The translations under genes and the position numbers were made by a program. Positions 12,743 through 37,774 of a stretch of DNA of 39,711 bases are shown here, piece after piece. The notes under the pieces are model-generated. The model did not search any database. It had not been told where the DNA came from and was given only the letters and a program-made list of their open reading frames with translations. The DNA is from Candidatus Woesearchaeota archaeon (lineage in GTDB: Archaea; Nanobdellota; Nanobdellia; Pacearchaeales; GW2011-AR1), in contig CAYHBQ010000002.1 in the NCBI GenBank assembly GCA_964354995.1, forward strand, positions 1 through 39,711, in the 5' to 3' direction. Positions within the stretch are counted from its first letter, which is position 1. Every line of letters starts with the position of its first letter.

Positions 12743-12746
12743 AAAA

Positions 12747-18063: not shown

Positions 18064-18064
18064 A

Positions 18065-19689: not shown

Positions 19690-20120
19690 CGTTTTCTCCG
19701 CATGACCTTTTTGATAATCTCTTTGTGGGTAAATGCAATATCCGTAGCAAGCGCTTCCTGGAACGAGAACCACTTCCATTCACTTACTTCCCAGTTGGGT
19801 TTAACATTTCCAGAAAAAGAAACATCAAAGACCAATATAAGATTATGTAAATGCAAACGAGGCACAAACTCATCATGGTAAAACAAAAAGCGTGCACGCT
19901 TTCCTACAATCCCAATTTCCTCGCGTACCTCTCGCAACACGCCTGCTTCGGCAGTTTCTCCCTTATCTAAATGTCCTCCTGGCAAACACCATTTACCCCC
20001 TTCAATAAGCGAAGGAGAACGTCGGGTCAAAAGAATCGTATCTCCCTTCAGAATAATGGCGGCCAGACACGGCTGAGGTGAAACTAAATTCAAAAACGAA
20101 CGTATAAACCAATTAGTCAC
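19686..20120 (-). CDS. Nudix hydrolase
   Basis: Nudix box GGHLDKGETAEAGVLREVREEIGI (G.5E.7REUxEExGU). GTG start overlapping the stop of the upstream methyltransferase (GTGA). Confidence 0.85.
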   Translation of the reverse strand: MTNWFIRSFLNLVSPQPCLAAIILKGDTILLTRRSPSLIEGGKWCLPGGHLDKGETAEAGVLREVREEIGIVGKRARFLFYHDEFVPRLHLHNLILVFDVSFSGNVKPNWEVSEWKWFSFQEALATDIAFTHKEIIKKVMRRKR

Positions 20121-24437: not shown

Positions 24438-24827
24438 TTAATCATTAACGTACACGAGACCATTAGAACGACGCAAAACGTTAGTCCCAGGGACAAACGT
24501 TCCCGTAACATTCTTAACAAGAACCGAAAGAGCCTGCGAACCATCGAGCGTATGAACGTAGAGCCGACCATCAACAACATCAAGTTCGTAGTCGAGATTA
24601 ACAATTTGCAGAGGTAGCTCAAATGTACGACTGTACCCATCAACAGTGGCATGGGCAAACGCCGTTTCTTCTTGTACCATGCGAGCAACCTGCTGAATAG
24701 TGAGCATCTGACGTTCATATAAACGATCTGAAGAAGAGAGCGCAATCGAAACCAAAAAGGCCACAAAAAAGAACAGAACAAACCCTGTAATAATCATAAA
24801 TTCAACAGAAGACTGTGCACGGTCCAT
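24438..24827 (-). CDS. Class III signal peptide (prepilin-like) protein, Gln(+1)/Glu(+5) type
   Basis: MDRA|QSSVEFMIITGFVLFFFVAFLVSIAL: short basic leader, A/G at -1, Q at +1, E at +5, then a hydrophobic helix of about 20 aa. Lies 2 nt downstream of the preceding prepilin gene. Confidence 0.7.
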   Translation of the reverse strand: MDRAQSSVEFMIITGFVLFFFVAFLVSIALSSSDRLYERQMLTIQQVARMVQEETAFAHATVDGYSRTFELPLQIVNLDYELDVVDGRLYVHTLDGSQALSVLVKNVTGTFVPGTNVLRRSNGLVYVND

Positions 24828-24829
24828 AG

Positions 24830-25279
24830 CTAGCCCTCTTGAATGAGGACGTGATCGTCCTGCGCAATCAATTGTATGCGTTTAACACCTTCGCTAGACG
24901 AAAGCGCCCCTTGTAGAGGAACAGCACTCGAGTAAGAAATAGTATTCGTCCCCGAACGAGAGGCTACCACAAAAAGAAGTTCATCCTCATCAACACTTAC
25001 ACTCGAAACGCCAGAAGGGAGGTATATGCGAAGAAGGATACGAGAAGGCTCTCCAGAATAGAAAACCTCTTCAGAGTTCGTAACAACTGTCTTTGCAAAC
25101 CGATTAAGATTGCTAAATCGTATCTGATCGCCAATACTTGCAGAATAAAAAAGCGCAACCCCCAAAAGTGCAACCACGAGGAGGGTTACAAATGAAACAA
25201 CGATAAGGTATTCAACACTAATTTGCGCTCTTCGTCCGTCGGGCATGGCTTCGGTAGGTTTATAAAATAAATCTGACAT
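24830..25279 (-). CDS. Class III signal peptide (prepilin-like) protein, Gln(+1)/Glu(+5) type
   Basis: ...MPDGRRA|QISVEYLIVVSFVTLLVVALLGVALFY. The ORF-track start at 25321 is TTG. In-frame ATGs occur at 25279 and 25246; the latter gives an 8-aa leader like the other prepilins, so the true start may be 25246. Confidence 0.7.
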   Translation of the reverse strand: MSDLFYKPTEAMPDGRRAQISVEYLIVVSFVTLLVVALLGVALFYSASIGDQIRFSNLNRFAKTVVTNSEEVFYSGEPSRILLRIYLPSGVSSVSVDEDELLFVVASRSGTNTISYSSAVPLQGALSSSEGVKRIQLIAQDDHVLIQEG

Positions 25280-25315
25280 CTTGATGTGAGGCGCGTATTT
25301 AAAAGTTAGTAGCCT

Positions 25316-25834
25316 ATGCAAAAAAGAGGAACAAATAAAGTTGTGAGTGTGTTAATAACGCTGGTTGTCACAGCTGCAGTCCTCCACACAGCCGCCCACT
25401 TCGCTATCTATGGTACGGGAATTCCAAATATTAACGAACAAGGTGTTTCTGGATTTGCAATCGGAAGCATAACGGGAGAGCAAATAAAGACAAATTACTC
25501 AAACGCCTCCTCAACATCAAAAGCGATTATTATAGGTGAATGGGCACTTCTAGTTATTCTTATTGTAATAAGTCTTGTCGGAGAACGTATGCACGTTAAA
25601 AAGCAGCACATCGCGCTTGAAATAAAAAAATCAACCGATAAATCAAAAACGGATATTGATGTATTGTACGACCTTCTTAAGGAAAAAAAGAAAATAGACT
25701 TGAGCACGATTGCTGAAACGTTTAAGATAAGTGAAGAAACCGCAACCGAGTGGGCAAAAATATTGGAAGAAGCTCAATTAGCAAGTCTGCACTATCCTCG
25801 ATTTGGCGAGGCCCAACTAAAAATAAAGGAGTAA
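25316..25834 (+). CDS. Membrane-tethered protein with C-terminal winged-helix-like domain, first gene of the pilus operon
   Basis: Two TM segments (VVSVLITLVVTAAVL, AIIIGEWALLVILIVISLVG), then DIDVLYDLLKEKKKIDLSTIAETFKISEETATEWAKILEE (HTH-like). Confidence 0.55.
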   Translation: MQKRGTNKVVSVLITLVVTAAVLHTAAHFAIYGTGIPNINEQGVSGFAIGSITGEQIKTNYSNASSTSKAIIIGEWALLVILIVISLVGERMHVKKQHIALEIKKSTDKSKTDIDVLYDLLKEKKKIDLSTIAETFKISEETATEWAKILEEAQLASLHYPRFGEAQLKIKE

Positions 25835-25837
25835 ACC

Positions 25838-27655
25838 ATGAACAAAAAAGAAAAAAACAAATACGCACAACATTTTGGATTACCTCCTATAAAGCCAGTC
25901 GCCCCAGCTCCTGCTCAGACAAGAACTCCTGAAAAAAGAAGAGAACAACCATCGCCTCCGCATGTGCACGAGAAGCATCACGTCAAAATAACAATGCACG
26001 AAAAAAAGAAAGAACATCATCAAAATGTGGCGCATGCTTCCGTGCATCAAAAACAACACGCGCATATCAAACCGCATATATCTCATGAGGTCCATGGCGC
26101 TAAAGCCCCGCATGTGCACGAACATCAAGAGCATCATGCACAAGTAGCCACACACGTAAAAAAAGAAGCAAGCGAAGTTGAAAGATATAACATCGAAATG
26201 GATAACACGCAAGTTACCGTAATTATACGAAAAACTCCTGAAGGAAACCTGTATGAACTCCAACTCCCCCAGATAAATGTAGCGACCGCCGCCCTTCTGA
26301 GAGACATGAGAAACGAACTTGTAACCCTTACTTCAGTAAGCATGAAAGAGCTCGTCGACCCTGAAGCGTTTTCCGCAATAAAGAAGCGGTTCACCGAAGA
26401 TGCACGAAAAATGTTAAAACAGAAACTACCGGGAATTGGTCAAGAAGTCGAAAGCTTTCTAGTTGGCGTACTTATTCAAGACATGTTGGGTCTCGGAAAA
26501 CTTGAGTTTCTCATAAACGATTCAGGATTGGAAGAGATTGTAGTGCCATCCGCTCGCGAGCCCGTACGCGTCTATAGCAAGAAATACGGATGGGTCGTAA
26601 CAAACATAACCATTGGTTCGGAAGAAGAAATTGTAAATTACGCCAATATTATCGCACGACGTGTGGGTAGACAGATAACGGTTCTCAATCCGTTGCTTGA
26701 CGCACACCTTATAACTGGCGACCGTATAAATGCGGTGCTCTATCCCATAAATACAAAAGGAAGCACAATTACCGTCAGAAAGTTTGCGCGTGACCCTTAC
26801 ACGATTATAGACTTCATAAACAATAAGACCTGCGACCTTGACACTGCCGCACTTATCTGGTTGGCCATAGAGTATGAAATGAACATTCTCATCTCGGGAG
26901 GCACCGGTTCAGGAAAAACATCTTTTTTGAACGCGTGTATGCCTTTCGTTCCACCCAACCATCGAATCATAAGCATTGAAGATACGCGAGAGCTCATGCT
27001 CCCAGAATATCTCTATTGGACCCCATTATCAACAAGAACACCGAATGCCGAAGGAAAAGGAGAGGTAAACATGCTCGACCTTCTCGTTAACTCGTTAAGA
27101 ATGCGTCCCGACAGAATCATATTAGGGGAAATGAGAAAACATGAAGAGGCAATGGTCCTCTTTGAAGCAATGCACACAGGGCACTCGGTGTATGCAACCG
27201 TGCACGCTGACTCGGCTCCTGAAACCGTCTCTCGCCTCATTAATCCCCCACTCAATATTCCCGCCAACCTCCTGCGTGCAGTACACCTCAATGTAGTCAT
27301 GTTTAGAGACAGAAGACGAGGAATACGTCGTATTCTGCAAATAGCAGAATTTGAAGCAGAAAAAGACACGGCACATGCAAATATTATTTACAGATGGTCT
27401 GCAGAAGAAGACAAAATAGTGAAACATAGTGAAAGTTCACGGTTCTTTGAAAACGTTGCACGTTCAACAGGCATGTCTTCGAAAGAAATGGACGCGGACT
27501 TGGAAGAAAAAAAGAGAATACTCGCATGGGTAGGGAAAAACAATATGCGTAATATTCAACAAGTAGGAAGAGTAATGAATGTTTATTACAAAAACAAGGA
27601 GCTCCTCAAAGAAGCGCTGGCAAAGAACAACCCTTCCCTTATCCAAAACGAGTAA
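25838..27655 (+). CDS. Type IV pilus/secretion ATPase (FlaI/TadA/VirB11 superfamily) with His-rich N-terminal extension
   Basis: Walker A GGTGSGKTSFLNA, IISIEDTRELMLP, Walker B RPDRIILGEMR, His box TGHSVYATVHA. N-terminal residues 42-106 contain 20 His by hand count. AAAGGAG lies 7 nt upstream of the ATG. Confidence 0.9.
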   Translation: MNKKEKNKYAQHFGLPPIKPVAPAPAQTRTPEKRREQPSPPHVHEKHHVKITMHEKKKEHHQNVAHASVHQKQHAHIKPHISHEVHGAKAPHVHEHQEHHAQVATHVKKEASEVERYNIEMDNTQVTVIIRKTPEGNLYELQLPQINVATAALLRDMRNELVTLTSVSMKELVDPEAFSAIKKRFTEDARKMLKQKLPGIGQEVESFLVGVLIQDMLGLGKLEFLINDSGLEEIVVPSAREPVRVYSKKYGWVVTNITIGSEEEIVNYANIIARRVGRQITVLNPLLDAHLITGDRINAVLYPINTKGSTITVRKFARDPYTIIDFINNKTCDLDTAALIWLAIEYEMNILISGGTGSGKTSFLNACMPFVPPNHRIISIEDTRELMLPEYLYWTPLSTRTPNAEGKGEVNMLDLLVNSLRMRPDRIILGEMRKHEEAMVLFEAMHTGHSVYATVHADSAPETVSRLINPPLNIPANLLRAVHLNVVMFRDRRRGIRRILQIAEFEAEKDTAHANIIYRWSAEEDKIVKHSESSRFFENVARSTGMSSKEMDADLEEKKRILAWVGKNNMRNIQQVGRVMNVYYKNKELLKEALAKNNPSLIQNE

Positions 27656-28536
27656 TGGCATTCAAAATACCCTTCACCCGTGGTCCGCTTGAGAAGTTAA
27701 AAAAGAGAGCAGCTTTCGCTTCTTCGCTTATTTCAAGAAAAAAGGACACGTCACTCGCAGAGATTCTAAAGAACAACGAAATACCCCTTACCCGGGAAGA
27801 ATACTTAGGTATATGTGCAACAACAGGTATAAAAAATTTAGTTATAATCTCAATTATAGCGACGACAGGTTTACTGTTAATTGGAACAAGCAAGTTCTGG
27901 CTTTACGGAATTGGATTCGGATTGATGATTTCCTTATTCACCTTTGGACTCCAACAAGCATACCCGTTCATTTACCAAACAAGACGACAAAAGAATATAG
28001 AGCGAAATCTCATACCTGCCTTAGAAGACATAATGGTGCAACTAAATGCAGGCGTACCGCTCTTTAGCATATTAGTAAACATATCTTCTTCAGATTATGG
28101 TGAACTAAGCAATGAATTTAAGAAAGCGGTAAAAAAGATGAATGCGGGCGTGCCTCAAACAGAAGCACTAGACGACCTTGGAAGGAACAACCCTTCAGTA
28201 TACTTTAGAAGAACGCTCTGGCAAATAAGTAATGGTATGAAAGCAGGGAGCGATATTGTGATAGTCATCAAAGAAAGTATGAAGTCACTTAATCAAGAGC
28301 AAGTTCTGCAGATTCAAACGTACGGCAACAAACTAAACCCGCTTATCATGTTCTATATGCTTATATCGGTCATATTGCCCGCACTAGCGGTGACGTTTCT
28401 CACAATCCTTGCTTCGATGGTGAACCTCGATAAAGCAACGACACAGGGGTTATTCATTGGGGTATTCGTGCTTATTTTGATAATCCAAGTTATGTTCTTA
28501 GGCGTCATAAAATCGACCCGCCCCAGCTTGCTATGA
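27655..28536 (+). CDS. Pilus platform membrane protein, single T2SSF domain (TadB/TadC/EpdJ-K-like), half 1
   Basis: LEDIMVQLNAGVPLFSILVN...FKKAVKKMNAGVPQTEALDDL...LWQISNGMKAGSDI flanked by TM helices. Its ATG overlaps the ATPase stop (TAATG). Confidence 0.8.
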   Translation: MAFKIPFTRGPLEKLKKRAAFASSLISRKKDTSLAEILKNNEIPLTREEYLGICATTGIKNLVIISIIATTGLLLIGTSKFWLYGIGFGLMISLFTFGLQQAYPFIYQTRRQKNIERNLIPALEDIMVQLNAGVPLFSILVNISSSDYGELSNEFKKAVKKMNAGVPQTEALDDLGRNNPSVYFRRTLWQISNGMKAGSDIVIVIKESMKSLNQEQVLQIQTYGNKLNPLIMFYMLISVILPALAVTFLTILASMVNLDKATTQGLFIGVFVLILIIQVMFLGVIKSTRPSLL

Positions 28537-29447
28537 TACGAGACAACAGCGCCCAAGAAAAGAGCAAGAGATCGCGCCAGATAGTGTATCTGCTCGTGAT
28601 AGCCTCGATAATTATTGGAATTGGCGCGTATTACATAACCGGAAGTACAAAAACGTCATTGATAACCTTAGTCAGTTCCGTAACCATATTGGGTGTTTCT
28701 TATTACGCCAATGAAAAAATGATTCTTACGAAAAAAATAAAGAAGATGGAAGATGCATTCCCCGACTTCCTTGAGCTCATGGCAAGCAACTTGCGTGCCG
28801 GAATGACGATAGACAAGGCACTACTTGCAAGTTCACGCGAGGAATTTGCTCCGCTTGACCTTGAAATAATGAAGTTAGGTAAAGACATAGCAACAGGGAA
28901 AAACATTGAACGCGCACTTAAAGAAATGGCAGAACGCATTAATTCAGAGAAAATACGAAAAACACTTCTTGTTATAATCTCAGGTATAAAGGCGGGAGGC
29001 AACCTCGCAGCGCTGCTTGAAGAGACCGCAATCCACACGCGTGAAAGAGGATTTGTAGAAAAACGGGCCGCATCAAACGTACTCATGTATGTCATATTCA
29101 TATTCTTCGCACTTGCCGTTGGCGCCCCAGTACTCTTTGGACTATCCGCGGCATTAGTGCAAATAATAACCAACCTGCTTGCAACACTCCCGCCCATAGA
29201 AAGTGCAAATATACAAATGCCCTTCACGCTTACTCAAATATCAATATCAACCACATTTGTCACGTATTTTTCGCTAATATTTCTTATTATGACCAATGTT
29301 TTGGGTTCGTTGGTACTCGGTTCAGTTAGTAAAGGAGAAGAAAAAGCAGGCATAAAATACATTGCCCCATTAATCATTCTGAGTGTAAGCATATTTTTCA
29401 CTGTTAAACAAGTACTATTAACCTACTTTGCAGACTTTTTAGGGTAG
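28533..29447 (+). CDS. Pilus platform membrane protein, single T2SSF domain, half 2
   Basis: PDFLELMASNLRAGMTIDKALL...LGKDIATGKNIERALKEMA...ISGIKAGGNLAALLEE plus TM helices. ATGA overlap with the preceding gene. Confidence 0.8.
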   Translation: MIRDNSAQEKSKRSRQIVYLLVIASIIIGIGAYYITGSTKTSLITLVSSVTILGVSYYANEKMILTKKIKKMEDAFPDFLELMASNLRAGMTIDKALLASSREEFAPLDLEIMKLGKDIATGKNIERALKEMAERINSEKIRKTLLVIISGIKAGGNLAALLEETAIHTRERGFVEKRAASNVLMYVIFIFFALAVGAPVLFGLSAALVQIITNLLATLPPIESANIQMPFTLTQISISTTFVTYFSLIFLIMTNVLGSLVLGSVSKGEEKAGIKYIAPLIILSVSIFFTVKQVLLTYFADFLG

Positions 29448-29481
29448 ATAGCTTTTTATAATAAAATCGGTTCGTAGAGAG

Positions 29482-30273
29482 ATGAAAAAGAGAGAGAAAA
29501 CAAAAAGAGTGAAACACAAGATTTATCATAAGAGCAAAGCGCATTCAAAAAGAGTAAAGCCGAAAAAAACCGAACGAGTGCCAACCGGAATCCCTAACTT
29601 CGATACGCTGATTGAAGGAGGATTTGAAAAAAATTCAACCAATTTGTTAATAGGGGGAGCGGGAAGTGGAAAATCAATTTTTGCCATTCAATTCCTAATG
29701 AAAGGAATCAAAGAAGGAGAACCAGGGCTATATATCACATTTGAAGAAACAAAGGAAGAGTTCTATGCAAACATGGCACGATTCGGATGGGACTTGCGAA
29801 AATATGAAAATGAGGGAATGTTTGTTTTCCTCGAATATACGCCCGAACGAGTAAAGACCATGCTTGAGGAAGGCGGAGGTGCAATTGAGAACATAATTCT
29901 CAAGGGCAAAATAGCCAGAGTAGTAATAGATAGCATAACGTCATTCGAACTACTCTTCGACAACGAGCTTGAAAAACGTGAAGCTGCTTTCGAATTATTT
30001 AATATGATAAGTAAGTGGAACTGTACCGCGGTCGTAACATTTGAAGCAAATATTCGCTCAAGCGATAAACCTGACACGCGTACCATGGAATTTGAAGCAG
30101 ACTCCATCATTGCATTTTACTTTATGCGAACAAAAAACGAAAGAAAACGATATTTAGAAGTGCTTAAAATGCGAGGGACAAAACACTCGACAAAGATATT
30201 TTCGTTTGAAATGACAAGAACGGGAATTGCACTCGGGAAAAAACCATTTACAGGGAAGATAGAAGCCTATTGA
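29482..30273 (+). CDS. KaiC/RecA-superfamily ATPase (FlaH/ArlH-like) with basic N-terminal tail
   Basis: GIPNFDTLIEGGFEKNSTNLLIGGAGSGKSIFAIQFLMKG...GLYITFEE...VVIDSITS. The first about 35 aa are K/R/H-rich. It has its own A/T box (29453-29462) about 25 nt upstream of the ATG. Confidence 0.8.
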   Translation: MKKREKTKRVKHKIYHKSKAHSKRVKPKKTERVPTGIPNFDTLIEGGFEKNSTNLLIGGAGSGKSIFAIQFLMKGIKEGEPGLYITFEETKEEFYANMARFGWDLRKYENEGMFVFLEYTPERVKTMLEEGGGAIENIILKGKIARVVIDSITSFELLFDNELEKREAAFELFNMISKWNCTAVVTFEANIRSSDKPDTRTMEFEADSIIAFYFMRTKNERKRYLEVLKMRGTKHSTKIFSFEMTRTGIALGKKPFTGKIEAY

Positions 30274-30309
30274 CGAGCACTTTAAATAATCGCATTCCGA
30301 ATCTAAAGC

Positions 30310-30795
30310 GTGGTGAAAAAGAGAGGGCAAGCATGGGGTATCGATGTAACACTTGCGGCAATGATATTTGTTGCAGGAATCGTCGTATTCTACTTATACA
30401 CAATTAACTATAAATCAGGAGAAGGTCTCGAAGTTGAAGAAGGGCGTTTTGAGGCAGGGCTCGTGGCTTCAAGCATCCTTTCAGAAGGTGCTCCTGAAGA
30501 CTGGGATCAAGACACGGTAAGCAAGATAGGCATCCTCACACAAGGTCAGATAAACGAAACGAAGTTAGCACGATTTTACAATCTCACCCAAACAGATTAC
30601 GAAAGAACCAGACAGTTATTTGGTATACGATACGACTATTTCGTAAGCCTCTCCGTTCCCCTTGTAATAGAAGGTTCTCTGCGAGAAGGAATAGGCAAAC
30701 AGCCAGACGAAAGCGCGGAAAACACATTAAAGTTAACAAGATTCACTAACTATCAAAACAAGCCAGTAACCATTGAGGTGCTCGCATGGAACTAA
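30310..30795 (+). CDS. Class III signal peptide (prepilin-like) protein
   Basis: MVKKRG|QAWGIDVTLAAMIFVAGIVVFYLY. GTG start (30310 or 30313), with no in-frame ATG upstream of the signal. A/T box at 30280-30289 is about 25 nt upstream. Confidence 0.6.
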   Translation: MVKKRGQAWGIDVTLAAMIFVAGIVVFYLYTINYKSGEGLEVEEGRFEAGLVASSILSEGAPEDWDQDTVSKIGILTQGQINETKLARFYNLTQTDYERTRQLFGIRYDYFVSLSVPLVIEGSLREGIGKQPDESAENTLKLTRFTNYQNKPVTIEVLAWN

Positions 30796-33700
30796 ACAAA
30801 AAGAGAGGGGTGTTTTTTAGCCTTGATGCAATCATTGCATTGGGAATTATTCTTTTAACAATTCTTCTCGCGTACCCTTTTCTCAACGAACCTAAACCAG
30901 AAACAGAATTACAATCAGATATCATACAATCACTTTCCTCACTTAAGATATATGAGTTAGATAGCGCGTATGCGCAAGGACTTATCGCAGATGGAAGCCT
31001 AATAGAAACCAACAAATCGGTTCTAGAAGCGCTTGGAGAGCTCTATGTAAAAAATGTAACCCAAGCGAAACTACTCGCAGAAGAAGTACTCAATGAACTT
31101 GAAACAAAAGAAAATATAGGGTTATGGTATGGAAACACGCTCCTCGCGTCAAAAAATAGTTCTGCCTACGAAAACGCGCAAAAAGTAGAAACCGCACGAC
31201 AGATAATAAGTGGAATTCAAGAAGGAGAAAGTGTGACTGGATTCTCTGCGAGAGCATTTTTACAAAGCAAACGACAAACTAAATATGCCTACATTGGAGG
31301 ATACGTCGGAGAAGGAAACCTTACAATTCCTCTCGAATTCAACGGAGTCGCACTGGGAGCAACACTTGAAGCAACAACAAGTACAAACTTTGACGTATAT
31401 ATTAATGATAATTTCGTAGGAAGTTATCAAAAATCTCCCTCGCAAACAGAACCTCAAAATTATACGCTTGGAGTAACATTCTTTCAAAATGGAACAAATA
31501 ATATAACCCTCCGAGCAGCAAATTTATCTGTTGCAGGAGGATTCGTCAAATTAGTCTATTTAAGTTCCGTTCAGTACAAGCAGCCTGTACGCTATCATTT
31601 TCCAGGAATAGAGGGGGTAGTAAACCTTTATGATGGATTCTACGTACCAGGGACGCTCACCGAACTCGCAATTTCACTGCATTACGACAGCGCATATACC
31701 TCCTTCCTCACCATCGGCAACACAACCGTTTTAAGTAATACCACGACGGGCGAGACTACGGTAATCCTGACAAATAGCGAGCTTAATGCGCTACTCGATT
31801 ATGACTCATTGAGCAATCGGTCAATACCGATACGATTCGGTTTAGAAAACCTCTCGCTTATAGGAGAAGGAATTAAAGATATAGATGTCGTGCTCATCAC
31901 CGATGTATCGGGCAGTATGGCTTGGAGAATGGATAATGACAACAACGGAATAACCAGAAGTTGCACCGACCCGCTTATTAACGACCCTTCAACAAGAAGG
32001 ATTAGTCTAGCAAAATGTTTAGACCGCGATTTCGTCGCAACTATCCTTAACAGCAGCGTGGGAAGCCGAGTCGCGCTCGTTTCATTCTCAGATGATGCAA
32101 ACAACTACGTAAGTTTAACTCACAATCAAACGCTACTTAATAATACCATTTTTTCATACAGTACAGGAGGTGCAACCTGCCTTTCGTGCGCCATAAATAG
32201 AGCATACCAAATTCTTGAAGCCGAAGGCGCGGCAAATCGTACAAAATTCATTATTGCAATGACCGATGGGGTAACCAACCGGCGAAGCACCGAAAGCTGT
32301 AACGATCTCTATGGATCAAGTGGTCCAACAAACGCCTATATACAGGGAAGCGGATTGAACGGACTTTTACTAAAAAGGAACGAGACGACAAAGATATGGG
32401 CCGCGTTACCTCCTCCTGCAAGTAACACGCTCAACGATATCGATTTGCTCAATGAAACCCTCGGATTTGCAGCGGGCGCGAATGGAAAAATACTGAAGTG
32501 GAATGGAAATGTATGGTCAAACGAAACGTCCCCTATCACATCAACACTCTATCGTGTAGATGTGTACAATGGAACCTACGCACTTGCCGTCGGTGCAAGC
32601 GGACGAGTGGTACGATGGAATGGTGCAAGCTGGTCAACATTAGCGACAATTTCAAACGCACCAACGATTTATGGGATAAACATGTATAATCACACCCTTA
32701 TTTTCGCCAGCGGAGCGCGTAGCGGTTCAGGACGCATATTCCGTTCATCCAATGGAGGACAATCATGGAGCGAAATAGAGAGTAGTACTACCGAATATCG
32801 CGCCGTAAAAATAATTAACGCGACCCGAGCATTCGCAGTTGGAAGCGGAGGAAGAATAATGCAATGGTCCTCAGGAAGCACCTGGTCACAAGTCAGTTCA
32901 GGCACTTCAGAGAATCTGTACGGAATAGACTCGTATAACCGCACAAGAGTCTTTGCAGTGGGAGGGAACAATGGCAAGTCAGTTGCAGTAAGTTACAATG
33001 GAGCAAGTTGGAGCTCATCCCTCAACACGGGAGGAGACTCGCTGCGAGACGTAGCAGTGCTCGATAACGCGGTCCGCGCAGTAGGTGAAGGAAGTACTAT
33101 CTATGAAAGAAATGCAACCGCCTGGACAAAAATATATACCGTGCCCCCCGCCTATGGAGGAATCAGCACGTCGGGAGTCTCATGCACTGCGGATTCAGAT
33201 AGTTGTACTGAAATAAACTCTTTTCCTGGTCTAAACGCAAACTACAGCTCATGTCGAGCACGAGAATTGATAAATGCGACTATTTATTCAGTCGGGTTCG
33301 GACCAATTGCAACGTGCGGATTCGCAAACCAATTACTACAATCCATCGCATTGTGCGGAAATGGTACATTTTATGCGAGTAGTGATGCGGAGGAACTAAG
33401 AGAGTTCTATGAGAGCATTGCGCAAGATCTTATTCGATTGTCGTACAGCGAGCAGACTGCAAAAACAGAAGGAAATATTTCAGCAAGGCTTTATCCGGAT
33501 TCTTATTTAGAGTTCAATTACACAGAAACCCCTACCCCCTACGGACTGTTGCTTTCATATGAAAAGTTATTCGATAATAGTACCTCTGCAACATTGAGTC
33601 TGCCAGGAAACGTAACCGTTCTAGACCTTAAAGCCCTTTCATATTCGGGTGCACGTTGGACATCACAGCTTGCAATCAATCAGCAAATAGTGTATAGTCT

Positions 33701-34193
33701 CGCTTCCTACGGGACGGATTTCACAAAACGTGGAGACCCCTTCCAAATACATATTCCTACTGAATATGTGGGACCACAAAATAATATCACGTTAGTTACC
33801 GGACTTTCGCCAACTAACACAAGTGAAGGCTCTCCCCACAACAAACTTGTATACACCTTGCTCAAGAACGCATCCGGATATTCGCCCATCGTTTCAGTTT
33901 CCGAGGGGTGCACCTGGACAATTGATTTTGACAGCGGAGCCAATCTTACAACACGCATTCCAGGAAACTATTCTGAAAGCAGCGTGTGCACATACCAAGC
34001 AACGGGTATTTCTTATAACAACAATGATGCAGCACAAGAAGCAGTTTATCGTTTATTCGATAGTCTTGACCTTAACAAAGATAATAGAGTGGATGTAGAA
34101 TTCACTGAAGACGATCTTGAAATAACCCTCACCGAAGTAACGGGAATCCCATTCACATGGTCGACGGAGGTGCAAGTACGCGCATGGCGCTAA
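30786..34193 (+). CDS. Giant TadG-like pilus-associated protein: class III signal, vWA domain interrupted by a six-repeat propeller-like module
   Basis: MELNKKRG|VFFSLDAIIALGIILLTILLAYPF. MIDAS DVSGSM (31902-31919), IIAMTDG (about 32250-32270), closing ATIYSVGFG...ELREFYESIA (about 33285-33430). Six repeats of (F/V)A(V/A)G..G.i..w.(g)..W(S/T) lie between about 32400 and 33140. 36 N-x-S/T sequons by hand count. Confidence 0.8.
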   Translation: MELNKKRGVFFSLDAIIALGIILLTILLAYPFLNEPKPETELQSDIIQSLSSLKIYELDSAYAQGLIADGSLIETNKSVLEALGELYVKNVTQAKLLAEEVLNELETKENIGLWYGNTLLASKNSSAYENAQKVETARQIISGIQEGESVTGFSARAFLQSKRQTKYAYIGGYVGEGNLTIPLEFNGVALGATLEATTSTNFDVYINDNFVGSYQKSPSQTEPQNYTLGVTFFQNGTNNITLRAANLSVAGGFVKLVYLSSVQYKQPVRYHFPGIEGVVNLYDGFYVPGTLTELAISLHYDSAYTSFLTIGNTTVLSNTTTGETTVILTNSELNALLDYDSLSNRSIPIRFGLENLSLIGEGIKDIDVVLITDVSGSMAWRMDNDNNGITRSCTDPLINDPSTRRISLAKCLDRDFVATILNSSVGSRVALVSFSDDANNYVSLTHNQTLLNNTIFSYSTGGATCLSCAINRAYQILEAEGAANRTKFIIAMTDGVTNRRSTESCNDLYGSSGPTNAYIQGSGLNGLLLKRNETTKIWAALPPPASNTLNDIDLLNETLGFAAGANGKILKWNGNVWSNETSPITSTLYRVDVYNGTYALAVGASGRVVRWNGASWSTLATISNAPTIYGINMYNHTLIFASGARSGSGRIFRSSNGGQSWSEIESSTTEYRAVKIINATRAFAVGSGGRIMQWSSGSTWSQVSSGTSENLYGIDSYNRTRVFAVGGNNGKSVAVSYNGASWSSSLNTGGDSLRDVAVLDNAVRAVGEGSTIYERNATAWTKIYTVPPAYGGISTSGVSCTADSDSCTEINSFPGLNANYSSCRARELINATIYSVGFGPIATCGFANQLLQSIALCGNGTFYASSDAEELREFYESIAQDLIRLSYSEQTAKTEGNISARLYPDSYLEFNYTETPTPYGLLLSYEKLFDNSTSATLSLPGNVTVLDLKALSYSGARWTSQLAINQQIVYSLASYGTDFTKRGDPFQIHIPTEYVGPQNNITLVTGLSPTNTSEGSPHNKLVYTLLKNASGYSPIVSVSEGCTWTIDFDSGANLTTRIPGNYSESSVCTYQATGISYNNNDAAQEAVYRLFDSLDLNKDNRVDVEFTEDDLEITLTEVTGIPFTWSTEVQVRAWR

Positions 34194-35113
34194 TACCTGA
34201 CAAGAGGGGATTCTTTTTTACAATACTTACGATAATAACGCTTTCCTTATTCCTTATAACCTATGGAATCTACAACGAATTTAAAGAACGTTCGTCAGAA
34301 CAGAAACGAGTAAAAACGCTTGATAGCTTCTTAAAAGCAACTGAAGCAGACCTCTCGCGTCAAGCATACATCATGGGTTTTAGGGCAATATTTATCATCG
34401 AAAGTGCAATAAGCGCATCGGGAAGTTATAGTTCAGATGTCAACGCACAGGTCAATGAGATAATACAAAATGGCACGTTGGGCGGAGTACCGCAACCACT
34501 CATGATTGGAGCAACGCTGCCCGAGATAAGTGCGTTCGCGAATGAAAAAGCATCCAAGCTCAACGCAGAACTAACACTCTCGCAACCGACAATACATGTT
34601 TTCCAACGCGACCCTTGGCAGGTAATTGTGCAAATAAATACGACCCTCGTTCTCAACGACAAAAACGATAAAGCTAATTGGACAATCAGCGAATCTATTG
34701 AAGCACCCCTAGAAATAGACAACTTCGAAGATCCACTTTATATTGTGAACACTAACGGTCTCGTAACCAACAAGATAACTCGAACACCCTATGAAGACTT
34801 CACACAGGGCACCGATGTAACCAATTTAATAGATCATGTAACAAACTCGTACTATACGGCAACGTCACTTGCGCCCAGTTTTATGCAAAGGCTTGAAGGA
34901 AACCTAACTCCAAGCGAAGAGGGCATAGAGTCGTTCGTGAACCTCCAAGAGCTCAGCAGTGTAGGTATGACGGTACAAGACAAAAGCGTCGTAGACCATG
35001 TATACTTTTCATCACAAAATCCTCTCGCTTATAGAATCCAAGGAATGCAGTCATGGTTCAAAATCGATGACGCTCATCTGCAAATTTATGGCGTCGAAGA
35101 GCTCATACTCTAA
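34184..35113 (+). CDS. Class III signal peptide (minor pilin-like) protein
   Basis: MALIPDKRG|FFFTILTIITLSLFLITYGIY. Start taken at ATG 34184, a 10-nt overlap with the preceding stop. Confidence 0.6.
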   Translation: MALIPDKRGFFFTILTIITLSLFLITYGIYNEFKERSSEQKRVKTLDSFLKATEADLSRQAYIMGFRAIFIIESAISASGSYSSDVNAQVNEIIQNGTLGGVPQPLMIGATLPEISAFANEKASKLNAELTLSQPTIHVFQRDPWQVIVQINTTLVLNDKNDKANWTISESIEAPLEIDNFEDPLYIVNTNGLVTNKITRTPYEDFTQGTDVTNLIDHVTNSYYTATSLAPSFMQRLEGNLTPSEEGIESFVNLQELSSVGMTVQDKSVVDHVYFSSQNPLAYRIQGMQSWFKIDDAHLQIYGVEELIL

Positions 35114-35170
35114 GACAAGAATGTTTATAAACTCCCTCGATATAACCTTCATATAATCAACAAAAACTAA

Positions 35171-35177
35171 AAGGAGG
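35171..35177 (+). promoter_or_regulatory. Strong Shine-Dalgarno (aaggagg) 8 nt upstream of the major-pilin ATG; TATA gtttataaac at 35123-35132
   Basis: Among the genes checked, this one has the clearest UTR-plus-SD arrangement, whereas most are leaderless. Confidence 0.55.
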
Positions 35178-35185
35178 TGGAAACG

Positions 35186-35641
35186 ATGCACAAAAAAGGA
35201 CAAGCGGCGATGGAATTCTTGATGACCTATGGATGGGCCATTCTTGCAGCCATAATTGCGATTGGTGTTCTTGCATATTTCGGCGTATTCAGCCCAGGGA
35301 AGTACACTACTGGATCAACGGTCGTTAATCCTCCCTTCTATGCAAATTCATGGAACGTTCAAGCAGATGTAGCAGGAAGTTCCGGAATTATTCTCGAGCT
35401 CCGTAACAACGGAGGCGAAGACTTTGAAGTTCAGAGCATAGATGTTACAAATTGCGGAATATTCGCAACGCCAACAACTGTCGCGACAGGAGCGCTTCAA
35501 GCGTTCACCATTGACTGTACTGCGGGAGCATTGACTGAAGGAGATAGCTTCAAAGGAGATATCACCATCACCTATCTAAAAACAGGTAGTTCGGTTGTAT
35601 TAACCTCGACAGGAACAATCGCGGAAAAAGTCACGGCATAA
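35186..35641 (+). CDS. Candidate major pilin (class III signal, Gln+1/Glu+5, DUF361/EppA-substrate-like)
   Basis: MHKKG|QAAMEFLMTYGWAILAAIIAIGVLAYFG. Small (151 aa), with its own TATA, a strong SD and a T-rich terminator. The ORF-track start at 35177 is the GTG inside the SD. Confidence 0.8.
   Translation: MHKKGQAAMEFLMTYGWAILAAIIAIGVLAYFGVFSPGKYTTGSTVVNPPFYANSWNVQADVAGSSGIILELRNNGGEDFEVQSIDVTNCGIFATPTTVATGALQAFTIDCTAGALTEGDSFKGDITITYLKTGSSVVLTSTGTIAEKVTA
35195..35229. repeat. 35-nt exact repeat, copy 1 (prepilin signal-coding segment)
   Basis: aaaggacaagcggcgatggaattcttgatgaccta is identical at 35195-35229 and 36202-36236. Confidence 0.9.
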
Positions 35642-35771: not shown

Positions 35772-35933
35772 GATCGCGTAGCTCAGCCTGGTTAGAGCAC
35801 CGCTCTGATACCGTAGCTTCGAAAGAAGCGAGGCGCCACGGACCAAAGTCTGTGTCGACGGGAACTTCAGCAAAAGTTTCCGCACAAAACGTCAGTGAGG
35901 CGGGGGTCCCATGTTCAAATCATGGCGCGATCA
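35772..35933 (+). tRNA. tRNA-Ile (anticodon GAU) with an 87-nt intron at 37/38 (intron 35811..35897)
   Basis: Hand fold: acceptor GATCGCG/CGCGATC, D arm GCTC/GAGC, anticodon stem CCGCT/GGCGG (one U-G pair), loop CTGATA|intron|A, T arm CCATG-TTCAAAT-CATGG, discriminator A. The intron contains a GCTTC-GAAA-GAAGC hairpin. Confidence 0.8.
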
Positions 35934-35985
35934 TCCTACTAAAACCAAAGATTATAAAGGGCTCTGACTAAGAACGTGGAAGAGC

Positions 35986-37098
35986 ATGAAATTAAGAGGG
36001 GAAGTTATCTATAGACGCATACACCTCCTCCTAGGAGTGATATTTTTAGGAGCCTCTCTGGTATTTTTAACGCACTCATTACCTTCCATAACCGGATTCA
36101 GCGTCATAGAAAATATAGGGATCCAAAAAAACTCGCTTGTGGGAAGCGTGTGTCTACTGAACGCAGCGCTTATGTTCCGTCTCGCTACCCGAAACGCAAG
36201 CAAAGGACAAGCGGCGATGGAATTCTTGATGACCTACGGTTGGACTATTCTTGCAGTAATCATTGTCATGGGTGTAGTAGGATATTACTCCTTCTTTAAT
36301 ACGGATAGGTTGCTTCCTGACAGTACGCTCCTAGGCCCCCCCTTCTACGGAGTTGCAGGGAGTGCAGACGAAGATAGCGTTAATTTTGGCATTCGCAACA
36401 ACGGCGACCAAAGTTACACAGTCACTGGAGTCACGGTGCCTGGATGTGGCACTTATACCGATTCATTCACCGTCGCGAGAGGCGCAACTGTCGATCTTTC
36501 AGTGCAATGCGATGAAAATCTCAATCCCGACGATAGATTTGATGGCGACGTAACAATAAACTATCGCTCATCAGGAAGTACCGTAGACAAAACGGCCTCG
36601 GGATCAATTGGTACCCGCGTACAATCAGGAACAGGAACACAATTCTCTCCCCCTCTAGATTCAGGAGATGGCGGTCAACAAAACCCTGATCAAGACGGAG
36701 ACGGAATAACCGATGCATTAGACAACTGCCCTGCAATAGCAAACCCTGCCCAGACCGATAGCGATGGAGATGGAACAGGAGATGCCTGCGATGCTCAAAC
36801 GTGTGGCAATAATATACAAGAAGGGACAGAGATTTGTGATGGTACGGACATAAATGGAGAGTCCTGCACAGGATCCGGAGTCTGCCCTATAACGCTCGCC
36901 TGTCCTTATGAGGGAGGAACACTCGCGTGTGCACTAGACTGTACACAATATAATACAAATCAATGCACGCCCACGCAGTGCAGCGATGGATTAGACAACG
37001 ACTTAGATGGAAAGATAGACTACGGACAAGACACTGAATGCGACAATCAATCAGATGATCAAGAACTAAAAGCGATTGGACCAGGTGGCGCCGTATAA
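35986..37098 (+). CDS. Pilin paralogue with N-terminal 2-TM pro-region, internal class III site and C-terminal TSP3 / Cys-rich modules
   Basis: Residues 73-: KG|QAAMEFLMTYGWTILAVIIVMGVVGYY, and the pilin body is homologous to 35186..35641 (PPFY, RNNG, F.GD(I/V)TI.Y..GS). C-terminus: DQDGDGITDALDNCPAIANPAQTDSDGDGTGDACD (TSP type-3 repeats, about 36685-36795), CGNNIQEGTEICDG and CSDGLDNDLDGKIDYGQDTECD. TATA at 35950-35959 lies about 30 nt upstream of ATG 35986. An alternative ATG at 36172 has no A/T box. Confidence 0.75.
   Translation: MKLRGEVIYRRIHLLLGVIFLGASLVFLTHSLPSITGFSVIENIGIQKNSLVGSVCLLNAALMFRLATRNASKGQAAMEFLMTYGWTILAVIIVMGVVGYYSFFNTDRLLPDSTLLGPPFYGVAGSADEDSVNFGIRNNGDQSYTVTGVTVPGCGTYTDSFTVARGATVDLSVQCDENLNPDDRFDGDVTINYRSSGSTVDKTASGSIGTRVQSGTGTQFSPPLDSGDGGQQNPDQDGDGITDALDNCPAIANPAQTDSDGDGTGDACDAQTCGNNIQEGTEICDGTDINGESCTGSGVCPITLACPYEGGTLACALDCTQYNTNQCTPTQCSDGLDNDLDGKIDYGQDTECDNQSDDQELKAIGPGGAV
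36202..36236. repeat. 35-nt exact repeat, copy 2 (prepilin signal-coding segment)
   Basis: Identical to 35195-35229. Confidence 0.9.
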
Positions 37099-37110: not shown

Positions 37111-37725
37111 TTACGCACCAAACTCAAGAGTTAAACCTTTCTCGTGAAGACTGTATCGCTTCAGAGGTAAGTCGACTTGTAAACTGTTAACGTAGACTTT
37201 ATTTTTGCCAATCGCTTTTATTTCATATCCCGATTCAACTTTAGAAACGAATACATCGTCAATCGACCCAATACCTGGCGCACGTAAGTCATAAACGACG
37301 CCATCGCTCAATCGACGAATATCGCTTTTGGCCTCAATACGAGGAACACCCGCCATGCGTTTCATCTGTTCGTCAGTTAATTTGCGCGAACGAGTACGCG
37401 GTTGCTTGGGCGCAGACGCACCAATACTAACCTGTATTCCGTTAGGAAGAGGAGTCATATCTGCGTGAGGCGTGCCCTTCATCTGAGATTCAAGAGACTT
37501 CATAATCTGATTAAAGAGAGAAGCAATAATTTTATCGCTAAATCCAAACCCTGCTCCTCCTCCGCCAATAAGGGGTGTCTGAGAGAATTCATTCTTCCCT
37601 AGAAGTCCAAACTCGTCCAAATCTTTCTCGGGGTTACGTACATCGCATCCACAATGCGGACAAAAATCAAAGTCTGCTTTTATCGTGCTATGGCATTTGG
37701 GACAATCTTGCTTCTTACCAAACAT
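37111..37725 (-). CDS. Zn-ribbon protein with C-terminal alpha-crystallin/Hsp20-like domain
   Basis: MFGKKQDCPKCHS...FCPHCG (CxxC...CxxC), a Gly-rich linker, then EAKSDIRRLSDGVVYDLRAPGIGSIDDVFVSKVESGYEIKAIG...VDLPLKRYSLHEKGLTLEF (ACD-like strand pattern). The ORF-track TTG at 37731 is replaced by ATG 37725, about 26 nt downstream of the A/T box. Confidence 0.55.
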   Translation of the reverse strand: MFGKKQDCPKCHSTIKADFDFCPHCGCDVRNPEKDLDEFGLLGKNEFSQTPLIGGGGAGFGFSDKIIASLFNQIMKSLESQMKGTPHADMTPLPNGIQVSIGASAPKQPRTRSRKLTDEQMKRMAGVPRIEAKSDIRRLSDGVVYDLRAPGIGSIDDVFVSKVESGYEIKAIGKNKVYVNSLQVDLPLKRYSLHEKGLTLEFGA

Positions 37726-37774
37726 AATCAAGGCTAGAAAAACGAACTTATAAACGTTATGTAATCAAAAACAC

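What the first reader, a model, noticed from the sequence alone, without database searches (positions are those of the whole stretch)
35986..37098. Pilin paralogue with a cleavable-looking 2-TM pro-region and a Ca-binding/Cys-rich C-terminal cargo
The class III motif KG|QAAMEFLMTYGW lies 73 residues into the ORF instead of at the N-terminus. It is preceded by two hydrophobic segments (IHLLLGVIFLGASLVFL, LVGSVCLLNAALMF). The only A/T box (35950-35959) is about 30 nt upstream of ATG 35986, and none precedes the internal ATG at 36172, which would give a normal 12-aa leader (MFRLATRNASKG|Q). After a pilin body clearly homologous to the major pilin come thrombospondin type-3-like Asp repeats (DQDGDGITDALDNCP...DSDGDGTGDACD) and Cys-rich modules (CGNNIQEGTEICDG, CSDGLDNDLDGKIDYGQDTECD). 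The 35-nt signal-coding segment is identical to that of the major pilin gene about 1 kb upstream (35195-35229 = 36202-36236), while flanking codons have diverged. This implies gene conversion or very strong constraint. The protein could be a pilus-incorporated adhesin module or a terminator subunit.
Basis: partly seen in the sequence, partly recalled or inferred. Interest (0 to 1): 0.65.

Follow-up and report, generated by a model that had tools for sequence, protein, structure and literature searches.

The report
Archaeal pilin behind a two-helix membrane hairpin
This gene from a tiny groundwater (DPANN) archaeon encodes a pilus subunit with a sticky-looking calcium-binding tail, and its normal cleavage signal sits behind a conserved two-helix membrane hairpin instead of at the very start, an arrangement I did not find described for any type IV pilin.

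Summary
ORF 35986-37098 (+, 370 aa) has three parts:
- a two-TM hairpin (aa 1-72);
- an intact class III cleavage site K73-G74|Q75, followed by a pilin helix and a beta-sandwich that is 41% identical to the adjacent major pilin;
- an acidic cargo with 12 Cys that contains thrombospondin type 3 repeats.

The extension is real. Every relative retrieved keeps it. It evolves under purifying selection (pN 0.14-0.36 against pS 0.62-0.81). A TATA-like box lies 31-46 nt before the long start in all four orthologous loci. The internal Met63 is not conserved.

About a quarter of the best hits are pilins. The others carry cytoplasmic domains (HicA-like in 8 of 79) or are stand-alone proteins of 60-90 aa. 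That composition and the charge pattern place the hairpin's C-terminus in the cytoplasm, where prepilin peptidases cut. In 42 of 42 hairpin-pilins the residue at -1 is G, A or S.

The most likely mechanism is cleavage that releases a cargo-bearing minor pilin. This is inferred: no RNA or protein data exist, and no peptidase gene lies in the window. I class it as a new variant of a known kind.

The parts
35186..35641 (+). Major pilin gene (151 aa from ATG 35186; leader MHKKG|QAAMEFLMTYGW) with a Shine-Dalgarno sequence GGAGGTG at 35173-35179. It is the paralogue and the probable donor of the 35-nt identical tract.
   Evidence: 41% identity to the target ORF, E 1e-34
35195..35229 (+). 35-nt tract identical to 36202-36236 (major-pilin copy)
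   Evidence: exact; the identity ends on both sides; comparison with orthologues
35772..35933 (+). tRNA-Ile(GAU) with an 87-nt intron. It separates the major pilin gene from the target gene, so the target needs its own promoter.
   Evidence: Rfam tRNA, 47.9 bits; aragorn run with its intron option
35951..35958 (+). TATA-like box ATTATAAA, 35 nt before ATG 35986. An equivalent box lies 31-46 nt before the long-ORF ATG in L001, L002 and L003.
35986..37098 (+). Whole gene: 370-aa hairpin-pilin-cargo precursor
35986..36201 (+). N-terminal two-TM hairpin module (aa 1-72): basic N-terminus, TM1 (aa 12-28), outer loop, TM2 (aa 51-64), basic tail
   Evidence: helices 2-31 and 46-68; profile of relatives finds 424 clusters; charge pattern; purifying selection
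36088..36111 (+). Conserved outer-loop motif I35-T-G-F-S-V-I-E42 (family consensus NSxxG-ITGF-x-V-x-E). G37 is invariant across 16 diverse pilin-fused members; T and G are invariant across 79 non-pilin members.
36202..36210 (+). Predicted class III signal peptidase site K73-G74|Q75
   Evidence: 42 hairpin-pilins: -1 is G/A/S in 42; -2 is K/R in 40; +1 is Q in 40; +5 is E in 41
36202..36236 (+). 35-nt tract identical to 35195-35229 (target copy)
36208..36294 (+). Pilin alpha-1 helix (aa 75-103), hydrophobic. Its first 12 residues are identical to those of the mature major pilin.
36322..36624 (+). Pilin beta-sandwich domain (aa 113-213; Cys154 and Cys175 align with the two Cys of the major pilin)
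   Evidence: pLDDT above 95; Foldseek best hits 8fk7 Pyrobaculum type IV pilus, E 1.9e-5, and 8q30 Sulfolobus AAP pilin, E 9e-4
36682..36795 (+). Thrombospondin type 3 (Asp-rich, Ca-binding type) repeats, aa 233-270
   Evidence: PF02412, 28-31 bits, gathering score 25
36796..37053 (+). Acidic Cys-rich repeats (aa 271-356), including CGNNIQEGTEICDG and CSDGLDNDLDGKIDYGQDTEC
   Evidence: NF033662 acid_disulf_rpt, E 0.0063 here; in orthologue P0002 TIGR02232 scores 49 bits and NF033662 E 6e-8; DUF4215 and MopE-like hits in P0002; Cys positions

Best explanation
The gene encodes a three-part precursor of a modular minor pilin in a DPANN archaeon from groundwater. The nearest named relatives are Nanoarchaeota and Woesearchaeota.

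Shown:
- The gene has its own TATA-type promoter downstream of an intron-bearing tRNA-Ile.
- It is read from ATG 35986.
- Its first 72 residues form a conserved two-helix membrane hairpin.
- That hairpin is a member of a large, unannotated family of N-terminal modules.
- An intact Epd/EppA-type class III site (K-G|Q...E+5) follows.
- The pilin body is a paralogue of the neighbouring major pilin.
- The C-terminus carries TSP3 and acidic disulfide-rich repeats.

Inferred:
1. The precursor inserts with three membrane spans: N-terminus inside, loop outside, and the KG|Q site back at the cytoplasmic face.
2. The class III signal peptidase cuts after G74.
3. The 74-residue hairpin stays in the membrane. 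It resembles the stand-alone 60-90-aa hairpin proteins encoded elsewhere.
4. The mature pilin has a helix start identical to that of the major pilin. The adjacent pilus machinery (ATPase, two platform proteins, KaiC-like protein) incorporates it, most likely at the tip.
5. There its Ca-binding, Cys-rich cargo mediates attachment.

The hairpin's own role is unknown. It is enriched on cargo-bearing pilins, so the best guess is that it helps target or hold back bulky subunits before assembly.
For: The extension is translated and conserved:
- All full-length relatives keep it.
- In L002 the gene caller used the internal Met, but the long frame is open and conserved.
- Across six orthologue pairs the extension has pN 0.14-0.36 against pS 0.62-0.81. 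The pilin body (pN 0.20-0.30) and the cargo (pN 0.24-0.39) behave alike.
- Met63 is Ile in P0003 and absent in P0076, P0121 and P0129.
- A TATA-like box lies 31-46 nt upstream of the long start in four loci. L003 has GAGGGTGA shortly before that ATG.

The topology fits cleavage:
- The N-terminus is basic, the loop is net acidic, and the 10 residues before the site hold a mean of 4.1 K/R.
- In non-pilin members the hairpin is followed by cytoplasmic-type domains: HicA_toxin in 8 of 79, plus single weak hits to PIN, DUF4258 and nSTAND3.
- The review PMC4471445 states that prepilin peptidases cut on the cytoplasmic side.

The site is under selection. In 42 hairpin-pilins, -1 is G, A or S in 42, +1 is Q in 40 and +5 is E in 41. 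This matches EppA-type substrates, which end in Gly and carry +1 Q and +5 E (PMC3875500).

Pilin identity and context:
- BLASTP to the major pilin gives 41% identity.
- AlphaFold2 gives pLDDT above 95 for aa 113-213.
- Foldseek's best hits are archaeal type IV pilins.
- The pilus locus lies at 25838-35641.

Cargo: TSP_3 scores above the Pfam cut-off.

Link between hairpin and cargo: 23 of 42 hairpin-pilin representatives are at least 270 aa. Only 7 of 84 plain pilins have a mature length of at least 220 aa. Fisher p = 2e-8. The two thresholds are roughly equivalent once the ~70-aa hairpin is subtracted.
Against: - There is no direct evidence of transcription, translation start or cleavage. No RNA run holds the gene.
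- No class III signal peptidase gene was found in the window. Pfam scans of most larger ORFs and a crude motif scan found none, and five ORFs between 17686 and 21076 were not scanned.
- A 74-residue leader containing two TM helices has no precedent. Described leaders are hydrophilic and 6-26 aa long. Whether a peptidase accepts such a substrate is unknown.
- Conservation of G-1, Q+1 and E+5 could partly reflect constraints on the pilin helix rather than on cleavage.
- The cargo model has pLDDT below 50, so its fold and its Ca binding are inferred from repeat signatures only.
- The association between hairpin and cargo rests on cluster representatives, some of which are fragments.
Confidence: 0.55

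Rival explanations
1. The hairpin is not removed. The protein stays in the membrane with three spans and displays its pilin-like stalk and cargo on the cell surface. Alternatively it enters the filament only as the last, basal subunit and so anchors or terminates the pilus.
For: - An uncleaved pilin cannot bury a 74-residue extension in the filament core, so it could only sit at the base. This is inference from pilus architecture as described in PMC4471445.
- The hairpin acts as a permanent membrane anchor for HicA-like and other domains in most family members.
- No peptidase gene was found in the window.
Against: - The small -1 residue, +1 Q and +5 E are kept in 40-42 of 42 diverged hairpin-pilins. 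An anchor that is never cut would have little reason to preserve them.
- Bulky modular pilins are modelled at the tip, not the base (PMC8179133).
- An adhesive cargo at the membrane-proximal end of a filament would be poorly placed.
Confidence: 0.2
2. Polyprotein reading. Cleavage yields two functional products: the pilin and a free two-TM micro-protein. The micro-protein has its own job, for example marking or organising the assembly site, or sensing through its conserved outer loop. Fusion would ensure matched amounts or co-localisation of the two.
For: - Stand-alone hairpin proteins of 60-90 aa with complete basic tails exist (P0260, P0266, P0294, P0340).
- The outer-loop motif NSxxGITGFxVxE is the best-conserved part of the module and faces outward.
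- 424 clusters match the module.
Against: - No function is known for any member, and no Pfam, NCBIfam or PADLOC family covers it.
- No hairpin genes were found next to pilus genes in about 777 kb of DPANN pilin loci, other than the fusions themselves.
Confidence: 0.15
3. The extension is an annotation artefact. Translation starts at Met63 (36172) and gives an ordinary prepilin with a 12-residue leader.
For: - MFRLATRNASKG|Q would be a normal leader.
- One gene caller chose this start for orthologue P0004.
- A/T-rich runs exist upstream, inside the ORF.
Against: - Met63 is not conserved: Ile (ATA) in L003, and absent in P0076, P0121 and P0129.
- The upstream 62 codons are under purifying selection, and a profile of them finds hundreds of homologues.
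- No Shine-Dalgarno sequence precedes 36172.
- The conserved promoter box precedes the long start.
Confidence: 0.04

Closest known systems
Archaeal Epd-type (EppA-processed) type IV pilins of Methanococcus maripaludis
   Same: - The cleavage motif ends in Gly and has +1 Gln and +5 Glu (PMC3875500).
- The hydrophobic alpha-1 helix is present.
- The locus has one ATPase and two platform-protein genes, as in 'system 1' of the 2026 survey of archaeal type IV filament systems.
   Different: Epd leaders are 5-13 hydrophilic residues at the extreme N-terminus. Here the site follows 72 residues that hold two TM helices. The globular domain is a larger beta-sandwich, closer in fold to the Pyrobaculum and Sulfolobus AAP pilins.
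Modular type IV pilins (Streptococcus sanguinis PilB and PilC; Pelicic laboratory)
   Same: A pilin module carries a C-terminal functional module that is not specific to pili, is metal-dependent or adhesive, and is expected at the filament tip (PMC8179133). The same locus also encodes a pilin-like protein with a VWA domain (30786-34193).
   Different: Those pilins are bacterial and have short leaders. The cargo here is TSP3 plus acidic disulfide repeats rather than VWA or lectin. The N-terminal hairpin has no counterpart.
Type IVb and Flp/Tad prepilins with long leaders
   Same: They are the longest leaders on record, 15-30 aa.
   Different: Those leaders are hydrophilic and cytoplasmic. None contains a TM segment, and the longest is about a third of the length seen here.
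Thrombospondin type 3 repeat proteins and myxobacterial cysteine-rich acidic repeat proteins (e.g. MtsC)
   Same: The cargo hits PF02412 above its cut-off. The orthologue hits TIGR02232 and NF033662, and the window protein gives a partial hit to NF047638 MtsC.
   Different: The hits cover repeats only: 34 bits against a cut-off of 350 for MtsC. There is no MYXO-CTERM. The host is archaeal and the repeats are attached to a pilin.

Membership tests
Type IV pilin / class III signal peptide protein | Short (about 6-26 aa), mainly hydrophilic leader at the extreme N-terminus | tested here: not met
   The leader would be 74 aa with two predicted TM helices. The definition is taken from PMC4471445.
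Type IV pilin / class III signal peptide protein | Small residue (Gly/Ala/Ser) at -1, preceded by basic residues | tested here: met
   K73-G74 in the window. Across 42 hairpin-pilins, -1 is G in 37, A in 4 and S in 1; -2 is K/R in 40.
Type IV pilin / class III signal peptide protein | About 20 hydrophobic residues after the site that form alpha-1, with Glu at +5 (and Gln at +1 in the EppA type) | tested here: met
   QAAMEFLMTYGWTILAVIIVMGVVGYY; AlphaFold2 helix 71-103; +1 Q in 40 of 42 and +5 E in 41 of 42; PMC3875500.
Type IV pilin / class III signal peptide protein | Globular domain with a pilin fold and homology to a bona fide pilin | tested here: met
   41% identity to the adjacent major pilin. 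Foldseek best hits are 8fk7 (E 1.9e-5) and 8q30 (E 9e-4), both archaeal type IV pilus subunits. The profile search against PDB sequences gives the same two, weakly (E 0.018 and 0.055).
Type IV pilin / class III signal peptide protein | Match to the Pfam model Class_IIIsignal (PF04021) | tested here: not met
   Neither this ORF nor the major pilin hits it at E <= 0.1. JGI names relatives 'UPF0333 family'. The model appears not to cover this DPANN pilin family.
Type IV pilin / class III signal peptide protein | Encoded with the assembly machinery (ATPase, platform protein) | tested here: met
   T2SSE ATPase at 25838-27655, two T2SSF genes at 27655-29447 and a KaiC-like gene at 29482-30273, all upstream on the same strand.
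Type IV pilin / class III signal peptide protein | Cleaved by a dedicated prepilin (class III signal) peptidase; peptidase encoded in the genome | not testable with these tools
   No peptidase gene was found in the 39.7-kb window: Pfam scans of most larger ORFs and a crude GxGD motif scan were negative, and five ORFs (17686-21076) were not scanned. The rest of the genome is not available, and no proteomic data exist.
Modular pilins | N-terminal pilin module fused to a C-terminal domain that is defined independently of pilus biology | tested here: met
   TSP_3 (PF02412) scores above its gathering score at aa 233-256, downstream of the pilin domain. The definition is taken from PMC8179133.
Thrombospondin type 3 repeat proteins | Pfam PF02412 match above the gathering score; Ca binding by the Asp-rich loops | tested here: met
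   The sequence criterion is met (28-31 bits against 25). Ca binding itself was not tested.
DPANN N-terminal two-TM hairpin module (undescribed; defined here) | Basic N-terminus, TM1, loop NSxxG-[IVL]-T-G-[FYL]-x-[VI]-x-[ED], TM2, basic tail, always at the protein N-terminus | tested here: met
   The window protein has all elements. The near-identical P0001 scores E 5e-16 against the profile, but the window sequence was one of the 16 used to build that profile, so this is partly circular. Independent members P0253-P0391 show the same layout.

The most novel reading that the evidence does not exclude
The two-TM hairpin is an autonomous sorting or parking module of DPANN archaea. It takes whatever is fused to it (cargo-bearing pilins, HicA-type toxins, other cytoplasmic domains) to a particular membrane site. 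In the pilin fusions, the class III signal peptidase is used as a maturase that splits one precursor into a free membrane micro-protein and an assembly-competent pilin. This would be a mode of pilin biogenesis and of prepilin-peptidase use that I did not find described, and motif-based pilin finders that require the signal within the first ~30 residues could miss it.
Probability: 0.15. Interest if true: 0.8.

Novelty: new variant of a known kind. Interest (0 to 1): 0.62.

Why it matters
Type IV pilins are defined by a short hydrophilic leader at the extreme N-terminus. [quoted passage not shown]

- Here at least 42 diverged protein clusters across DPANN archaea place an intact cleavage site behind a membrane hairpin, preferentially on pilins that carry extra domains.
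- If the site is cut, prepilin peptidases accept a much wider range of substrates than described, and pilin biogenesis can include a membrane-embedded pro-region.
- If it is not cut, these would be membrane-anchored pilin subunits, which I also did not find described.
- DPANN archaea depend on contact with host cells, and pili with adhesive tips are prime candidates for making that contact.
- The hairpin module itself (424 clusters, no family assigned, also found on HicA-like toxins) is a new object for study.

Tried and rejected
1. Start at Met63: rejected, because the Met is not conserved and the upstream codons are under selection.
2. Nucleotide-level constraint as the cause of the 35-nt identity: rejected, because orthologues differ at 4-10 of 42 positions, all synonymous.
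3. The hairpin as a degenerate duplicate of the pilin N-terminus. This was suggested by 'SPGKY-ITG-xAIV' after alpha-1 in plain pilins. hhalign of the hairpin profile against the plain-pilin profile finds nothing (probability 0.1).
4. ORF 25316-25834 (two TM helices, then a weak wHTH, next to the ATPase gene) as a second hairpin member: rejected, profile score about 0.
5. The hairpin as a known family: no Pfam or NCBIfam model covers it, only stray weak hits to TM families. PADLOC gives nothing.
6. Assembly chimera: rejected. The same architecture appears in independent assemblies from several samples.
7. RNA evidence: no run holds the gene.
8. Searching genomes with the hairpin alignment failed because no stretch was conserved enough.
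9. A crude GxGD motif scan for a prepilin peptidase in the window and 83 loci found nothing convincing.
10. Literature searches found no description of a TM-containing pilin leader or of this hairpin.
Full report
**Setting**

The window is a complete 39.7-kb contig also held by NCBI. It comes from groundwater metagenomes. Its pilus ATPase falls in a 90%-identity cluster with a protein named 'Nanoarchaeota archaeon'.

Positions 25838-35641 hold an archaeal type IV pilus locus on the + strand:
- a T2SSE ATPase;
- two T2SSF platform genes;
- a KaiC-like ATPase;
- three pilin-like genes, including a 1135-aa protein with a VWA domain;
- a 151-aa major pilin (35186-35641, leader MHKKG|QAAMEFLMTYGW) with a strong Shine-Dalgarno sequence.

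A tRNA-Ile(GAU) with an 87-nt intron follows at 35772-35933. The target ORF comes next, at 35986-37098.

**Checking the observation**

- The ORF is 370 aa. ATG 35986 is the first start codon after an in-frame stop at 35965.
- The class III motif is K73-G74|Q75-AAMEFLMTYGW.
- Two hydrophobic stretches precede it. AlphaFold2, run on a 43-sequence alignment, models them as helices 2-31 and 46-68. It then gives the pilin helix 71-103 and a beta-sandwich at 113-213 with pLDDT above 95.
- The pilin part is 41% identical to the major pilin over that protein's whole length (E 1e-34).
- Its best structural matches are the Pyrobaculum type IV pilus subunit 8fk7 (E 1.9e-5) and the Sulfolobus AAP pilin 8q30 (E 9e-4).
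- The C-terminal 155 residues are strongly acidic (30 D/E, 2 K/R) and hold 12 Cys.
- They contain a TSP_3 repeat above the Pfam cut-off and weaker matches to acidic disulfide repeats. Those matches are clear in orthologue P0002 (TIGR02232, 49 bits).
- This cargo region is modelled with pLDDT below 50, so its fold is unknown.
- The 35-nt identity with the major pilin gene is exact.

One detail is wrong. A/T-rich runs also occur inside the ORF at 36040-36070 and 36110. They have no counterpart at those positions in the orthologous loci.

**Is the 72-residue extension real?**

Four lines of evidence say yes.

1. Every full-length relative retains it. These include a 98%-identical protein, three orthologues at 46-52% identity, and distant relatives with quite different C-termini (P0057, P0076, P0121-P0131). 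Orthologue P0004 was called from the internal Met, but the DNA of L002 shows an open, conserved long frame.
2. Across six pairs of the four orthologous genes, the extension has pN 0.14-0.36 against pS 0.62-0.81. This is the same regime as the pilin domain (pN 0.20-0.30) and the cargo (pN 0.24-0.39).
3. Met63 is not conserved. It is Ile (ATA) in L003 and absent in more distant members. The short form therefore cannot be the general product.
4. The order major pilin, tRNA-Ile, target gene is conserved. In all four loci a TATA-like box (ATTATAAA or TATTTAAA) lies 31-46 nt before the long-ORF ATG. L003 has GAGGGTGA shortly before that ATG. The spacing in the window (35 nt) suggests a very short or absent 5' leader.

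No RNA-seq run contains the gene, so transcript ends were not checked.

**What the extension is**

I built a profile from the extension alone, using 16 sequences, and searched 1.84 billion cluster representatives. It found 424 clusters at E <= 1e-3 and 45 at E <= 1e-10. The match lies at the N-terminus in nearly all of the listed proteins.

The layout is constant: a basic N-terminus, TM1, a loop with the motif NSxxG-ITGF-x-V-x-E, TM2, and a basic tail.

Of the 155 best proteins:
- 42 continue directly into G|QAAMEFLMTYGW-type pilins;
- 113 do not. Some of these are stand-alone proteins of 60-90 aa with complete basic tails. The others carry soluble domains.

Of 79 non-pilin members of at least 120 aa, 8 hit HicA_toxin (best E 1e-6). 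Single members give weak hits to DUF4258, PIN_12 and nSTAND3. No Pfam, NCBIfam or PADLOC family describes the hairpin.

The 'pro-region' is therefore a promiscuous N-terminal membrane module, so far unannotated, that has been joined to pilins among other things.

**Topology and cleavability**

Among the hairpin-pilins the N-terminus carries a mean of 1.9 K/R. The loop is net acidic (2.05 D/E against 0.9 K/R). The ten residues before the site carry 4.1 K/R. By the positive-inside rule this gives N-in, loop-out, C-in.

The cytoplasmic-type domains that follow the hairpin in the non-pilin members agree with this. The KG|Q site is therefore expected at the cytoplasmic face, which is where prepilin peptidases act (PMC4471445).

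The site is strongly preserved in 42 diverged hairpin-pilins:

| Position | Residue | Count |
|---|---|---|
| -1 | G / A / S | 37 / 4 / 1 |
| -2 | K or R | 40 |
| +1 | Q | 40 |
| +5 | E | 41 |

This is the signature of EppA-type substrates in Methanococcus, which end in Gly and have +1 Q and +5 E (PMC3875500). The distance from the loop motif to the site is fixed at 36-43 residues.

I take this as good but indirect evidence that the site is used. Described leaders are hydrophilic and 6-26 residues long. A 74-residue leader with two membrane helices is outside anything I could find in the literature.

**Link to cargo**

I examined 84 plain pilins of this family in 80 DPANN genome loci plus the window and its orthologous loci. 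The genomes are named Woese-, Pace-, Nano-, Micr- and Aenigmarchaeota. The median mature length is 156 aa, and only 7 exceed 220 aa.

Of the 42 hairpin-pilin representatives, 23 are at least 270 aa, although many of the 42 are fragments. Fisher p = 2e-8. The two thresholds are roughly equivalent once the ~70-aa hairpin is subtracted.

The cargoes differ between members. They include TSP3 with Cys-rich repeats, a Pro/Ser linker followed by an unknown domain in L006, and lectin-like domains in P0076. Hairpin-pilins without cargo also exist, for example P0129.

Pilins with grafted modules are known in bacteria as modular pilins and are modelled at the filament tip (PMC8179133).

**The 35-nt identity**

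In the 42 nt that encode KGQAAMEFLMTYGW, the window's two paralogues differ at 2 positions. The target differs from its orthologues at 4-8 positions, all synonymous. In the next 54 nt it is no closer to the major pilin (18 differences) than to its orthologues (14-20).

Orthologues vary freely at synonymous sites, so there is no nucleotide-level constraint. A short gene-conversion tract from the major pilin is the simplest reading, although the segment is short.

**Mechanism**

The best-supported reading is as follows.
1. The precursor inserts with three membrane spans.
2. The class III peptidase cuts after G74.
3. The hairpin remains in the membrane.
4. The mature pilin, whose first 12 residues are identical to those of the major pilin, is assembled by the adjacent machinery as a minor subunit, probably at the tip.
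5. There it displays a Ca-binding, disulfide-rich adhesive module.

Steps 1-5 are all inferred. The gene structure, conservation, homologies and motif statistics are shown.

The rivals are:
- an uncleaved, membrane-anchored or basal subunit;
- a polyprotein in which the released hairpin has a function of its own;
- a start at Met63, which is largely excluded.

**Novelty**

The pilin, the locus and the repeat cargo are members of known kinds. Two things I did not find described: a class III signal placed behind a membrane hairpin, and the hairpin family itself. I rate the finding a new variant of a known kind, of real interest to people who work on type IV filaments and on DPANN cell biology. 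The central step, cleavage, remains untested.

Noticed in passing
window 35772-35933 (+); L001 about 970-1076; L002 about 280-352: tRNA-Ile(GAU) with an 87-nt intron at the canonical 37/38 position. The orthologous tRNA has an intron of about 33 nt in L001 and none in L002, so intron length turns over quickly between close relatives. ARAGORN with default settings misses the gene.
   Followed up: partly
window 12746-12882 (-): A second intron-bearing tRNA, tRNA-Lys(CUU), with a 60-nt intron (Rfam 51.2 bits). Default ARAGORN also misses it.
   Followed up: partly
proteins P0253-P0391 (not in the window): The same two-TM hairpin module sits in front of HicA-like toxin domains (8 of 79 members). 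Single members give weak hits to DUF4258, PIN and nSTAND3, and the module also occurs as stand-alone 60-90-aa proteins. Membrane-tethered toxin-like proteins in DPANN archaea appear to be undescribed.
   Followed up: partly
window 30786-34193 (+): A 1135-aa protein with a pilin-like N-terminus (MELNKKRG|VFFSLDAII), a VWA domain and a weak sub-threshold match to the BNR/Ycf48-like family (PSII_BNR). It resembles bacterial PilB/PilY1-type tip adhesins and lies in the same operon. Its start overlaps the preceding pilin-like gene by 10 nt.
   Followed up: no
window 25316-25834 (+): A 172-aa protein with two TM helices, an outer loop containing GVSGFAIGSITGE, and a weak C-terminal winged-helix match (Lrs14/MarR). 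It ends 4 nt before the pilus ATPase gene. It looks like the hairpin family but scores about 0 against the profile.
   Followed up: yes
window 24438-24827 (-) and 24830-25321 (-): Two further pilin-like genes on the opposite strand, with different class III motifs (MDRA|QSSVEFMI and RRA|QISVEYLI). They lie divergent from the pilus operon.
   Followed up: no
L002 402-1619 (protein P0004): The gene caller started this orthologue at the internal Met (345 aa) although the long frame is open and conserved. Automatic annotation of this family is inconsistent about the hairpin.
   Followed up: yes
window 9761-10204 (+) and 12140-12742 (-): Two small Peptidase_C39-like cysteine protease genes. The second also matches Guanylate_cyc_2. 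Neither is next to an evident ABC exporter.
   Followed up: no
window 37111-37731 (-): A convergent 206-aa gene with an N-terminal zinc ribbon starts its stop codon 13 nt after the target's stop. Together with the next gene (an MFS transporter) it keeps the same position in L001, and a 202-aa counterpart is present in L003.
   Followed up: no
plain pilins in L005, L011, L016-L018 and others: Plain DPANN pilins carry a conserved SPGKY-[IV]TG-x-A-[IV]V segment just after alpha-1. It resembles the hairpin loop motif GITGFxV by eye, but profile-profile comparison shows no relationship.
   Followed up: yes
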